64,000 nucleotides of DNA from Eledone cirrhosa (Eukaryota). The position numbers and the translations under genes are program-made. Of the stretch, positions 7,250 to 53,040 are shown piece after piece. The stretch's first letter is position 1. Each line of letters starts with the position of its first letter. The notes below the pieces were generated by a model. That model was not told the origin of the DNA and made no database searches. It saw nothing but the letters and a program-made list of their open reading frames with translations. The stretch is taken from assembly GCA_964016885.1 (NCBI GenBank), contig OZ024756.1:32488001-32552000 (forward strand). The letters run 5' to 3'.

Positions 7250-7603
7250 TCTATTGATTAAAAATAAATATATAATACCACATATAATACCCCTCTAACT
7301 AAACCCTACCAAACAAATACCAAAATCCTGTAATCCTACATGTTCCTAAAACATTTTCCAAACATTTAATCTTTATACGTCTACGTAATTGAACCTGGTT
7401 TTATATCATACATATATATTATATATATACGTATTATACACATGTGTGTAAAGGTAGAATATATAAGACGATATCTTAAAGAACATCAACTACAACAATA
7501 ACAATAACAACAACATTAACAAATAGCAGCAATAAAGAGAGCCAAATTTCAAGACAACCATATGTACTTATATAACACACACACACACCACACACACACA
7601 CAC

Positions 7604-7732: not shown

Positions 7733-8615
7733 GTGTGTCAGAAAAGTTCCAGGACTGATGTCACAAAAGATTTACTTCAAACCAATATTTCACACATAAG
7801 AGTCTTCTCCTTCAAAGTAATCCCCCTGGAGTCTAATGCACTGTTCCATCCTTTTCTGCTAGGCTTGCATGCACTCCTGGACGGATTCTTCCGGGATCCT
7901 CCGCAGTTCCGTCGTCACGGCCTTTTTTATGTCGTCCACGTCTTCAAAACGGGTCCCCTCCGGGTCGTACTCGAAGATCCATGACTCATCACTGGTGATG
8001 ACTGTCCCTAGCAAGTCTGGTTCGGTTTCAAGACGCTCGAGGATGTCCTGGCACACTTGCATGCGTCGACCCTTCTGGTCATCGTTCAGCAGTTTTGGCA
8101 CCATCTTCGCGCAGACTTTCCGCATGTCCAAATCTTCAGTGAGAATCTTCCAGACGCTGTCCCGATTCATGCCCAGTTCATTTGCCATCAGTCGAACATT
8201 CAGCCGACGATCGCTACGCACCATCTGGCTGACGCGCTCAACGTTGACCTCAGTCCCGGTTGTTGAGGGCCTTCCGCTCCTGGGGTCATCGTGCACCACT
8301 CAAAAACACGTGAGCGTGACATCGTCTCATCTCTATACACTTGCTGCAGCAATCTCAGTGCTTCTGACGGAGGTTTCCCCAACCGTACCAGAAACTTCAA
8401 GTCTGTTCGTTGCTCTGTGCTCATTGCTTGATGACCTGAAACAGAGGACATGTATATACAATTATGAAGAAAAAAGTTTGATCGCTGCAGAGAGCTAAGA
8501 TTACAGTTACTTACTCCAAAGAGATTACTTTGAAGGAGAAAACTCTTAGTGTGAAGTTTGGGTTTGAAATAAATCTTTTGTAACATCAGTTCTGGAACTT
8601 TTCTGACACACCTCC
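7729..8615 (-). mobile_element. Internally deleted mariner (Tc1/mariner) transposon
   Basis: ~94-bp imperfect TIRs (tgaggtgtgtcagaaaagttccag... / ...ctggaacttttctgacacacctcc), TA target duplication, transposase remnants inside. Confidence 0.95.
7859..8425 (-). pseudogene. Mariner transposase pseudogene
   Basis: MSTEQRTDLKFLVRLGK...SRSRVFEW, a frame break, then DDPRSGRPST, KMVPKLL (WVPHEL-like), VITSDESWIFEYDPE fused directly to GTRFEDVDDIK; most of the catalytic domain is missing. Confidence 0.93.
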
Positions 8616-8644
8616 TATATATAATACACACACACACACATGCA

Positions 8645-8695
8645 TTACGCTGGTATTCTAAGGGATATAAGCTTGCAGCATATTCTACCTTTAAA

Positions 8696-8745
<50 letters not shown>

Positions 8746-8804
8746 CACATGCATTTAAAGGTAGAGTATGCTGCAAGCCGATACCCCTTAGAAAACCAGT
8801 GTAA
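8645..8804. repeat. ~56-bp diverged inverted repeat flanking a (TA)n tract
   Basis: ttacgctggtattctaaggg...cttgcagcatattctacctttaaatgcat / atgcatttaaaggtagagtatgctgcaag...cccttagaaaaccagtgtaa. Confidence 0.85.
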
Positions 8805-9433: not shown

Positions 9434-9633
9434 NNNNNNNNNNNNNNNNNNNNNNNNNNNNNNNNNNNNNNNNNNNNNNNNNNNNNNNNNNNNNNNNNNN
9501 NNNNNNNNNNNNNNNNNNNNNNNNNNNNNNNNNNNNNNNNNNNNNNNNNNNNNNNNNNNNNNNNNNNNNNNNNNNNNNNNNNNNNNNNNNNNNNNNNNNN
9601 NNNNNNNNNNNNNNNNNNNNNNNNNNNNNNNNN
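9434..9633. other. Assembly gap (200 N) flanked by (GAT/GGT/GTT)n repeats
   Basis: N run. Confidence 0.99.
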
Positions 9634-10705: not shown

Positions 10706-10920
10706 GTCAACATGATAGGATCTGTTATTTTTATCTAAAGACATTTTTTCCAATTACAACCCGCCCGTCCCCTCAATCTACCTTATTACTCATTCTTTCT
10801 TCTGATGAAGGATTAGCGTCCGAAACGTTAAGACCCTCTTCCTGCTATATCAAGCGTTAACCTAATATATCCCTTCCATATACTGTACCGATTGTGTTGT
10901 TATTTCTGTTTACCTTTTAT
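10706..10920 (+). mobile_element. Family B short element with minimal hammerhead motif
   Basis: tctt-CTGATGA(10802)-a-gga-ttagcg-tcc-GAAACGTT-aaga; flanked by (TA)n; copies at 34602-34780(-), 41148-41360(+), fragment 55704-55762. Confidence 0.7.
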
Positions 10921-14397: not shown

Positions 14398-14704
14398 CTC
14401 AGTGTGTGGATGTTTGGTGAATCTGCTGTATGTGTGTCAAGGCAATTATGTGTAGGAACAACACCGCCATTGCTACCAATCAGTGTATAAATGAACCACA
14501 TGTAAGAACGTTGTACGAGGTCAGGCGAATTAAAACTAATTTATCAATGAATAACATTTACTGTTTCCGCTAAGCTTTTTACATTCTTTGTCCTCCATTA
14601 TCCATCACGTACACACTTACGTACGCGTAAAAACGCTTACATTATACCAATGATAACTACAGAAAAATATTGTGTGTATATGTATGTGTGTATATATATA
14701 TATA

Positions 14705-14901
14705 TATAATATATAAGATCAAAAGATAGTTAAAAGAGTTCCATGTATTTTATTATGCTCATTTCATGGAACTCTTTTCATGGAACTCTTTTAACCATCT
14801 GTTGATCTTATATATTATGTATACTCCAGTCCTACAAACTGTAGAGTGCATCTTATCCGATATCTGCATTGTTTTATTGTACTACAATAAAACTCACCTC
14901 C

Positions 14902-14905
<4 letters not shown>
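14705..14905. mobile_element. Family E fold-back element retaining only the 3' half of the hammerhead
   Basis: Inverted arms atataagatc...aaaagagttccatg / catggaactcttttaaccatc-gttgatcttatat; minus strand has GAAATGAGCATA-ataaaata; same ends as 41898-42061. Confidence 0.65.
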
Positions 14906-14937
<32 letters not shown>

Positions 14938-41460: not shown

Positions 41461-41498
41461 TTTCATCTGAAGAAGGGCTTATGCTCGAAACGTCGTTC
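41461..41498 (+). ncRNA. Minimal hammerhead-like core in a ~115-bp insert between (TA)n tracts
   Basis: CTGAAGA-a-gggc-ttat-gctc-GAAACGTC; stem I poorly formed. Confidence 0.5.
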
Positions 41499-41831: not shown

Positions 41832-41904
<73 letters not shown>

Positions 41905-41934
41905 AGATCGAAAGATGGTTAAACGAGTTCCAAG

Positions 41935-42005
41935 TATTTTATTATGCGCATTTCAAAAACAAATATCATCATGGGATGATATCTGCGTTCTCATCAGATA
42001 AAATA
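41935..42005 (-). ncRNA. Type I hammerhead ribozyme motif (family E, within element 41898-42061)
   Basis: tattttat-CTGATGA-gaacgcagatatcatc-ccat-gatgatatttgttttt-GAA-ATGCGCAT-A-ataaaata: 8-bp stem I, 15/16-bp stem II, palindromic helix III, AUA site. Confidence 0.8.
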
Positions 42006-42082
42006 GTGAAGTTTTAAATCAACATATGCTTTATTGTGCTACAATAAAACTCACCTCCTACATATATATATATATATATATA

Positions 42083-42464: not shown

Positions 42465-43500
42465 CTGTTGCTGCTGGTAGAAATGGTGGTGGTAGCGTCA
42501 CTGTTGCTGGTGGTGGTGGTGGTGGTAGCGCCGCTGTTGCTGCTGGCGTTGCTGTTGTTGCTGGTGGTGGCGCTGCTGTTATTGCTGGTGGCGGCGTTGC
42601 TGTTGTTGCTGGTGGTGGTGGTGGTAGCGCCGCTGTTGTTGCTGGTGGTGGTGAAGGCGTTGTTGTTGTTGTTGTTGTTGTGTCTGTTGTTGCTGGTGGA
42701 GGCGGTGAAGTCGGAAGTGGTGTTGTGGCAGCTTGATGCTTGTGGTGGTGGAGGCGGGAGGGTTACTGCTAGTGGCGGCTATATTACTGCTGTTTGTGGT
42801 GGTTGTGTTGGTGGAGGTGGTGAAGGTGTTGCTGCTGTGGTGGTGGTGGTGGTGGTGGTGGTAGTGGTGATGATGGTGGTTGTGTGGCGGCGGAGAAGGT
42901 GGCGTTTCTGTTGTGGTAGTGGTGGTGGTGGTGGTGGTGGTGGTGGTGACGTTGCTGTTATTGCTAGTGGTGGCGGTGTTGCTGTTGATGCTGATGTTGG
43001 TGGTGGTGTTGTTGCTGTTTTTGTTGGTGGTGGTGGTTGGGTTGATTTTAGTGCTGGTAGTTGTGGCTGTTGTCATGGTTCTGGTGGTGGTGTGGGCTTT
43101 GGTAGTGGTGGTAGTATGCTTTCTAATGTTGTTGGAGGAGGAGGTGTTGTTTCTGTTAGTGGGAGTAGCAGATTTCATGGCGGTGTTGTTGTTGTTGCTG
43201 CTAGTGGTGGTGGTGCCGTTGTTGTTGTTGCTGCTGCTGCTAGTGGTCGTGTCGTTGTTGTTGTTGTTGCTGCTAGTGGTGGTGTCGTTGTTGTTGTTGT
43301 TGTTGTTGCTGCTAGTTGTGGTGTCGTTGTTGTTGTTGTTGCTGCTAGTGGTGGTGTCGTTCTTGTTGTTGTTGTTGTTGCTGCTAGTTGTGGTGTCGTT
43401 GTTGTTGTTGTTGCTGCTAGTGGTGGTGTCGTTGTTGTTGTTGTTGTTGTTGCTGCTAGTTGTGGTGTCGTTGTTGTTGTTGTTGTTGCTATTGCCGCCA
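42465..43500. repeat. (GTT/GGT/GCT)n compound repeat ending in ~33-36-bp units gctgctagt(g/t)gtggtgtc(gtt)n
   Basis: Read directly. Confidence 0.9.
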
Positions 43501-43654
43501 TTATCCGTTTTTTTTTTTTTTTGTTATTGTTTTATTTCCTTTTCTTCATGGCAGTGATATTTTTAGAGATTCAAGTCTGTTATAATCTTTCACCAAAGTT
43601 GGAACTGGCAGACGACCACAGACTAATTCTAAGGAATTCGTAGCACAGAATCTT

Positions 43655-52702: not shown

Positions 52703-52757
52703 ACTGCTATATATATTTCAGTGACAGCCATCTTTGGCTGTGACCTCTTCAGGCAGT
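52703..52757 (-). ncRNA. Type I hammerhead ribozyme motif (family G, mirror copy)
   Basis: Reverse complement of 52986-53040. Confidence 0.75.
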
Positions 52758-52985: not shown

Positions 52986-53040
52986 ACTGCCTGAAGAGGT
53001 CACAGCCAAAGATGGCTGTCACTGAAATATATATAGCAGT
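52986..53040 (+). ncRNA. Type I hammerhead ribozyme motif (family G)
   Basis: actgc-CTGAAGA-ggtcacagcca-aaga-tggctgtcact-GAA-ATATATAT-A-gcagt: 5-bp stem I, 10/11-bp stem II, palindromic helix III, AUA site. Confidence 0.78.

What the first reader, a model, noticed from the sequence alone, without database searches (positions are those of the whole stretch)
41935..42005. Best-formed hammerhead: long stem II and palindromic helix III
Perfect 8-bp stem I, canonical CUGAUGA and GAAA, 16-position stem II with one mismatch, ATGCGCAT palindrome and AUA site, on the same strand as the candidate host gene. The unusually long stem II may replace loop-loop tertiary contacts.
Basis: partly seen in the sequence, partly recalled or inferred. 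Interest (0 to 1): 0.75.

Follow-up and report, generated by a model that had tools for sequence, protein, structure and literature searches.

The report
Penelope retrotransposon hammerhead with fixed mismatch
This is a real self-cutting-RNA motif, but it is one leftover scrap of a jumping gene copied about 17,000 times in this genome; it likely cuts slowly and only in pairs, and its one unusual trait is an unpaired cytosine kept in a long stem by some 110,000 related motifs.

Summary
The described hammerhead is there as written (minus strand, 41935-42005; predicted cut after 41943). It is not a host-gene ribozyme: it lies in a ~165-base truncated end repeat of a young Hydra-type Penelope-like retrotransposon inserted in (TA)n. 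16,889 exact copies of its 3' half exist; intact parents carry an 800-residue telomerase-like reverse transcriptase between two such hammerheads. Palindromic helix III and dimer cleavage are known for Penelope hammerheads. The long stem II is real: it covaries across sister families (about 112,600 motifs genome-wide). But its length varies (about 7-15 pairs), while an unpaired C at position 4 is nearly fixed (94%; closed to C-G in 0.4%), so the mismatch, not the length, looks selected. Inserted copies almost never end or begin at the cut site, so insertion likely uses uncut RNA; the ribozyme is likely slow and partner- or protein-gated, and this lone copy likely silent. No host gene was found; cleavage and expression are untested. 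The scan already noted the same mismatch family on other DNA of this genome (e1-8670794). New variant of a known kind.

The parts
41898..42062 (-). Whole remnant: 5'-truncated pseudo-LTR end of a Hydra-type Penelope-like element plus an inverted tail piece, between two (TA)n runs
   Evidence: blastn to the full element L064 at 90-97% identity; alignments to L005, L027, L064; flanks seen
41935..42005 (-). Type I minimal hammerhead motif
41998..42005 (-). Stem I, 5' strand (pairs with 41935-41942, 8 bp)
41991..41997 (-). Core CUGAUGA (C3-A9)
   Evidence: the only recurrent core variant in laid reads is at N7, 41993
41955..41990 (-). Stem II: 15 pairs over 16 positions, G.U at its base, C.U mismatch at position 4 (41987 opposite 41958), 4-nt loop 41971-41974
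41952..41954 (-). Core G12 A13 A14
41944..41951 (-). Helix III palindrome AUGCGCAU (A15.1 to U16.1), predicted dimer helix
   Evidence: self-duplex -10.5 kcal/mol; monomer helix costs +3.5 kcal/mol, pairing probability 0.001
41942..41943 (-). Predicted cleavage site, 3' of A17 (41943)
   Evidence: inferred from the hammerhead numbering; not assayed
41898..41934 (-). Sequence after the cut site up to the family's short 3' end, running into (TA)n
   Evidence: 44 of 72 distinct family copies end 30-54 nt after the cut site
42006..42028 (-). Upstream pseudo-LTR piece; 39 nt present in parent copies are missing just 5' of stem I
   Evidence: alignments to L027 and L064; reads with the missing letters (table 5c)
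42027..42062 (+). Inverted piece of the family's long 'tail' end (second 3' end, about 130 nt after the cut site)
   Evidence: 20 of 72 copies end 125-144 nt after the cut site

Best explanation
The motif is the hammerhead carried in the end repeat of a young Hydra-type Penelope-like retrotransposon, and this copy is a short truncated remnant that is likely silent. In the parent element (shown: hammerhead, about 210 nt, 800-codon reverse transcriptase/endonuclease frame, about 1.2 kb, second hammerhead, 3,864 nt apart) two same-family hammerheads would pair through their 8-nt palindromes to build helix III and cut after AUA (inferred). Cutting is likely slow or gated: the monomer cannot form helix III, the base of stem II is G.U or A-U, and stem II is interrupted by a fixed C.Y mismatch three pairs from the core (shown as sequence; its role as brake or protein docking site is inferred). 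This fits insertion from uncut RNA: reverse transcription would start about 45 or 130 nt downstream of the cut site and read through the hammerhead (ends shown; mechanism inferred by analogy with the anole element). The window copy has no same-family partner on its strand in the window and no reading frame.
For: 16,889 exact copies of the 29-nt 3' part, 8,497 forward and 8,392 reverse, control 0; 10,342 of a 36-mer. Full tandem units in L064, L066, L068; six intact frames 98.8-99.6% identical; model pLDDT 77.9, top three fold matches are telomerase reverse transcriptase, E 5e-8 to 3e-7. Hydra motifs DKT, CxCx5C, CxxC, CxH and (TA)n targets seen. Selection on the RNA fold: 7 of 7 recurrent stem II variants keep pairing against 2 of 7 rare ones in 44 family rows; across 27 clusters positions 2, 3, 5-9 pair in 22-26 of 25-27 with several Watson-Crick types, position 4 is C.C 20, C.U 4; genome-wide 112,637 motifs with C at position 4 against 7,357 without (controls 185, 636), and 491 with C-G closure. 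Helix III centres vary but stay self-complementary, 9 of 27 only through U.G pairs. Uncut template: 182 copies depart from the family within 9 nt after the cut site, mostly by small indels, against 16,889 that read through; 5' junctions at the cut site 158 against 140 in a control window 17 nt away. Literature: Penelope hammerheads slow and dimer-dependent (PMC4209133); anole element's hammerhead cuts only with its protein and uncut RNA is the insertion substrate (PMC11167929).
Against: No cleavage or expression data. Rfam finds no hammerhead. Pfam, NCBIfam and PDB sequence searches do not name the parent protein (only 2 of 16 aligned relatives hit reverse-transcriptase models); the endonuclease is read by eye. 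Inside the family no two-sided change was seen. A monomer helix III of 2 bp plus tetraloop is like axolotl Amex2, which cuts weakly alone (22% in 1 h, PMC7229834), so strict dimer dependence is not certain. 21 of 24 close pairs among the first 100 listed places are inverted, not tandem, so cis partners are rare. The absence of cut-site ends is also what a non-cutting motif would give. Cluster sample is non-random and its members are related.
Confidence: 0.78

Rival explanations
1. The fold is kept mainly as a binding platform for the element's own protein (recognising the C.Y mismatch in the long stem II) and cutting is minor or absent.
For: Mismatch nearly fixed; no genomic trace of cut ends; hammerhead mutants do not affect insertion in vitro for the anole element (PMC11167929).
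Against: The catalytic core and the NUH site are kept across all sister families, with variation at N7 only, and palindromy covaries, which a mere protein site would not need.
Confidence: 0.12
2. One reading: the long stem II substitutes for loop-loop contacts and makes an efficient ribozyme.
For: Stem II is real, covaries, and is the longest in my sample (15 pairs); published Penelope hammerheads show at most about 8 pairs. The mismatch sits where a canonical 4-bp stem II ends and could dock on stem I.
Against: Length varies from about 7 to 15 pairs among sister families; no invariant partner base in stem I; an efficient ribozyme would cut the template that insertion needs uncut.
Confidence: 0.07
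3. This particular copy has been co-opted to cut a host transcript on the minus strand.
For: The copy keeps a complete motif and stems I and II are predicted to form in local context (P 0.41-0.43 and 0.99).
Against: It is an ordinary member of a young family, identical over the 71 nt to other copies; no host exon found; the only other same-strand hammerhead of this design in the window has a different palindrome (heteroduplex +1.7 kcal/mol).
Confidence: 0.03

Closest known systems
Hydra-clade Penelope-like elements and their hammerheads (Craig et al. 2021, PMC8557442; section 11, passages, and supplement parts 2-3 read)
   Same: C-terminal-endonuclease layout, DKT, CxCx5C linker, CxxC and CxH, (TA)n targets, hammerhead near the 3' end, relaxed 10.1:11.1 pair (G.U or U.U in several rows). 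An Octopus bimaculoides family, Hydra-1_Obim, is listed and its protein is similar by eye.
   Different: In the 26 Hydra rows of File S2 stem II is 3-7 bp without a fixed C.Y mismatch and all have A15.1-C15.2...G16.2-U16.1 (GUH sites); here stem II has 15 pairs, the site is AUA, the unit is 3.9 kb (theirs generally under 3 kb). Hydra-1_Obim's hammerhead is a different sequence.
Minimal and palindromic hammerheads of metazoan Penelope-like elements (Cervera and de la Pena 2014, PMC4209133; parts 1-2 of 4 and supplement file 2 parts 1-2 read)
   Same: Type I, in pseudo-LTRs, palindromic helix III, larger than usual helix II, mostly solo truncated copies and close inverted pairs. AU...AU palindromes (Aedes, Drosophila) and an AUA site with A10.1-U11.1 (D. 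willistoni) occur among their 56 rows.
   Different: Their consensus has an extra nucleotide before a G10.1-C11.1 pair and helix II up to about 8 bp; 2 of 56 rows have a position-4 mismatch (C.A in S. purpuratus 1, U.U in C. sinensis 2), none C.C or C.U.
Poseidon element PAc of Anolis (Frangieh et al. 2024, PMC11167929; parts 1-2 of 4 read)
   Same: Two 3' ends downstream of the hammerhead (tail), insertion from uncut RNA, no ends at the cut site.
   Different: PAc's reading frame starts inside the hammerhead and the tail is 30-40 nt; here the frame starts about 210 nt after the cut site and the tail is about 85-90 nt. Different clade.
Metazoan non-LTR retrozymes, e.g. axolotl Amex1/Amex2 (Cervera and de la Pena 2020, PMC7229834; passages read)
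   Same: Type I hammerheads in over 100,000 copies (126,247 in axolotl), weak helix III, better as dimers.
   Different: Those are non-coding 150-450-bp tandem repeats with loop-loop contacts; this family is an autonomous coding element and its dispersed remnants.

Membership tests
Type I hammerhead ribozyme | Core CUGANGA, GAAA and NUH site in order | tested here: met
Type I hammerhead ribozyme | Stems I and II with comparative support | tested here: met
Type I hammerhead ribozyme | Stable helix III in the monomer | tested here: not met
   2 bp, +3.5 kcal/mol, P 0.001; 8 bp only as a dimer
Type I hammerhead ribozyme | Canonical G10.1-C11.1 pair | tested here: not met
   G.U here, A-U in 27 of 44 family rows; also relaxed in published Hydra rows
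Type I hammerhead ribozyme | Match to an Rfam hammerhead model | tested here: not met
   0 matches at gathering threshold; E-value mode not run
Type I hammerhead ribozyme | Self-cleavage 3' of H17 | not testable with these tools
   needs an assay
Penelope-like element hammerheads | Located in the repeat flanking an RT/endonuclease frame, same strand | tested here: met
   L064, L066, L068; sister hammerheads beside a related frame in 2 of 30 loci with 1.5-kb flanks
Penelope-like element hammerheads | Palindromic helix III | tested here: met
   free pairs complementary in 26 of 27 and 25 of 27 clusters (part of the sample was drawn with a pattern favouring RYRY)
Penelope-like element hammerheads | Extra nucleotide between A9 and 10.1 (2014 consensus) | tested here: not met
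   register without an extra base fits the covariation
Hydra-clade Penelope-like elements | Telomerase-like reverse transcriptase | tested here: met
   fold search top hits TERT
Hydra-clade Penelope-like elements | C-terminal GIY-YIG endonuclease without CCHH | tested here: inconclusive
   C-terminal beta-hairpin/helix domain and motifs by eye; no profile hit; domain not fold-searched alone
Hydra-clade Penelope-like elements | DKT motif, CxCx5C linker, CxxC and CxH motifs | tested here: met
   read in the L064 frame against the definition
Hydra-clade Penelope-like elements | N-terminal RWK motif | tested here: inconclusive
   RWT or RWI at that place
Hydra-clade Penelope-like elements | Insertion into (TA)n | tested here: met
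   66 of 72 copies reach (TA)n within 260 nt; window copy
Hydra-clade Penelope-like elements | Phylogenetic placement with published Hydra proteins | not tested
   published sequences were only compared by eye
Non-LTR retrozymes | Non-coding tandem repeat of 150-450 bp | tested here: not met
   single remnant; parent unit 3,864 nt with a reading frame
Domesticated intronic hammerheads | Single conserved copy within a host gene | tested here: not met
   16,889 copies; no host exon found; orthology not testable

The most novel reading that the evidence does not exclude
A distinct, protein-gated hammerhead class: about 110,000 motifs from many Penelope families keep a C.Y mismatch in a long stem II that serves as the switch or docking site by which the element's reverse transcriptase controls cutting, while family-specific palindromes act as a pairing code so that each family cuts only its own RNA and lone copies leave host transcripts alone.
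Probability: 0.25. Interest if true: 0.72.

Novelty: new variant of a known kind. Interest (0 to 1): 0.4.

Why it matters
What the hammerhead does in Penelope-like elements is still open in the papers read. This genome offers a young family with intact copies, about 110,000 related motifs with natural covariation, one fixed non-canonical position to mutate, and genome-wide evidence that insertion uses uncut RNA. That makes the gating question directly testable. The window copy itself is an ordinary remnant.

Tried and rejected
Rfam at gathering threshold: nothing. The repeat finder was swamped by microsatellites. Pfam, NCBIfam, PDB sequence searches on the parent protein: no naming hit; 11 of 15 homologues carry PF26215, a model not reported by the local Pfam scan of six of them. 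Host gene: 133 of 134 frames of 62+ residues on both strands and 106 shorter minus-strand frames plus the 314-codon Asn/Thr frame at 42582-43523 gave only mariner transposase hints and a weak ZW10_C hit on the plus strand; the real ZW10 exons are on another contig. Short or unrecognised exons are not excluded. Sequencing runs: no RNA holder listed, no evidence either way. Metagenome scan with a tight pattern: 0 matches. Decay of the 3' arm of stem II was considered and rejected: it is the family's usual sequence. Editing as source of the G/A differences: changes run both ways, not followed. Genomic footprint of cleavage: looked for at both ends, not found. Lunse et al. 2017 (RNA Biol 14:1499) is not held; I saw only its title and the summary in PMC6765202, and it may already show this variant.

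Full report
Observation. Stem II has 12 Watson-Crick pairs, three G.U pairs (positions 1, 5, 8) and C.U at position 4; the base pair next to the core is G.U rather than G-C. The fold has z -2.7 (2 of 200 shuffles as good); a descriptor hits 3 times in the window and 0 times in 200 Markov simulations. Rfam reports nothing at gathering threshold.

What it belongs to. The genome is 3.0 Gb and rich in (TA)n; I infer an octopus-type genome, no call names it. A DNA search with 41900-42060 returned dispersed copies at 85-100% identity. Exact patterns count 10,342 copies of a 36-mer and 16,889 of a 29-mer, evenly on both strands, controls 0. Loci L031 and L032 showed broken reverse-transcriptase frames upstream; a protein search gave 43,061 candidates, 150 scored, several with open frames of about 820 codons. 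Of ten loci fetched for long frames, L064, L066 and L068 hold the full unit: hammerhead, tail, an 800-codon frame starting about 210 nt after the cut site, about 1.2 kb of untranslated DNA, a second hammerhead, then (TA)n; in L064 the hammerheads are 3,864 nt apart. Six intact frames are 98.8-99.6% identical (L069 left out because an indel broke the ungapped comparison). They carry a different stem II variant from the window copy, whose variant I saw beside broken frames (L031, L032), so it is probably from an older subfamily. Sequence profiles do not name the protein, but its model (pLDDT 77.9) matches telomerase reverse transcriptase best, and it has the DKT, CxCx5C, CxxC and CxH motifs and (TA)n preference that define the Hydra clade in PMC8557442; RWK is RWT or RWI. 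The window copy is about 165 bases: an inverted tail piece (42027-42062), a short upstream piece with a 39-nt deletion, the hammerhead, and 45 nt to the short end. No part of the reading frame is in the window (tblastn empty). Contigs of two other coded organisms hold the family (14 and 33 contigs).

Is the long stem real? Among 44 distinct family rows, 7 of 7 recurrent variant types at paired positions keep pairing, all one-sided G.U exchanges, against 2 of 7 rare types; the only recurrent core change in laid reads is at N7. A looser pattern revealed sister families: 59,067 matches against 16 control. With position 4 fixed to C there are 112,637 matches (control 185), with any other base 7,357 (control 636), many of them by eye point mutants or shifted registers. 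Closure to C-G occurs in 491, scattered over families plus a local satellite. From the window and 123 non-randomly chosen loci I took 99 distinct motifs and 27 clusters at 80% (19 at 70%): positions 2, 3 and 5-9 pair in 22-26 of 25-27 clusters with two to four Watson-Crick types each, while position 4 is C.C in 20, C.U in 4 and paired in 2; shifted registers pair less (36 and 22 of 54 against 51 of 54). The clusters are related, so these are not independent events. Stem II inserts are 20-37 nt with about 7-15 pairs; this family is the longest. No invariant partner base shows in stem I. So the conserved feature is the mismatch three pairs from the core, not the length.

Helix III. The four free central bases vary (ATAT 11, ATGT 7, GCGC 2, GTGC 2, five others once) yet the two free pairs are complementary in 26 and 25 of 27 clusters, nine clusters relying on U.G, which argues for RNA pairing (30 loci came from a pattern that favoured this, but the unconstrained listing shows the same centres by eye). 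Closing helix III in the monomer costs 3.5 kcal/mol (P 0.001); the self-duplex gives -10.5, and a duplex with the sister palindrome AUAUAUAU +1.7. The only other same-strand motif of this design in the window (52703-52757) has that sister palindrome.

Footprints of cutting. Of 72 distinct copies, 44 end 30-54 nt and 20 end 125-144 nt after the cut site, 8 elsewhere, none closer (sample biased to copies with downstream sequence). Genome-wide and without that bias, 182 copies leave the family sequence within 9 nt after the cut site, mostly by small indels in the 100 listed, against 16,889 that read through. 5' junctions at the cut site number 158, some being a 3-nt slip, against 140 in a control window. 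Insertions therefore come from RNA uncut at this hammerhead, as found in vitro for the anole element, whose hammerhead cut only with its protein (PMC11167929). Of 24 neighbouring pairs within 8 kb among the first 100 listed places, 21 are inverted outward, 2 inward, 1 tandem.

Mechanism. Shown: origin, unit structure, two ends, conservation pattern. Inferred: in tandem transcripts two hammerheads pair by their palindromes and cut after AUA, probably slowly or with help from the element's protein, with the mismatch as brake or docking site; reverse transcription starts downstream on uncut RNA. A lone remnant such as this one would rarely find a partner and is likely silent. No host gene was found and no RNA run was listed.

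Comparison. Hammerheads in Penelope repeats, palindromic helix III, dimer cleavage, inverted pairs and solo copies are in PMC4209133; Hydra hammerheads, including an octopus family, in PMC8557442. AU-type palindromes, an AUA site and relaxed 10.1:11.1 pairs appear in those tables. A 15-pair stem II and a fixed C.Y mismatch do not appear in the 26 Hydra rows or the 56 metazoan rows (two rows have other position-4 mismatches; figures were readable only as scrambled text, and one supplementary file was not searchable). Searches found no paper describing it, but Lunse et al. 2017 could not be read. Copy number is not a record (126,247 in axolotl, PMC7229834). An earlier scan note, e1-8670794, seen after my own counts, reports the same family with about 100,000 copies and proposes the mismatch as a brake; I reuse that wording and it is not independent support. 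Verdict: real, explained, a new variant of a known kind; interest 0.4.

Noticed in passing
window 52703-52757 (-) and 52986-53040 (+): Inverted outward pair of a sister hammerhead (26-nt stem II, C.C mismatch at position 4, AUAUAUAU palindrome) in a palindromic insertion beside (TA)n.
   Followed up: partly
window 14696-14906: Second remnant of the same family: inverted short end fused to a tail-ended arm, lacking the hammerhead core.
   Followed up: partly
window 10798-10833 (+) and 41467-41495 (+): Small hammerhead-like motifs of the classic minimal type (short stem II, extra base after the core, ACGT at helix III); weak stem I.
   Followed up: no
window 7862-8754 (-): Broken mariner/Tc1-like transposase (weak HTH_32 and HTH_48 hits).
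   Followed up: no
   Followed up: partly
window 9434-9633: Run of 200 N.
   Followed up: no
L031:4172-4214, L073, L024, L071: Another abundant hammerhead family with 4-bp stem II, U.U at its base and ACUAGU palindrome, often in inverted pairs.
   Followed up: no
L032:2382-2470: At an inversion junction the reverse strand of the hammerhead supplies an in-frame ATG (inside the palindrome) fused to a 5'-truncated reading frame.
   Followed up: no
G000:C2:36051810-36246120: Local tandem satellite rich in CTGAAGAG and GAAAT words that matches the hammerhead patterns without the stems.
   Followed up: no
L033:1016-4416: Two tandem pieces of a different non-LTR retrotransposon with long reverse-transcriptase frames next to family copies.
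   Followed up: no
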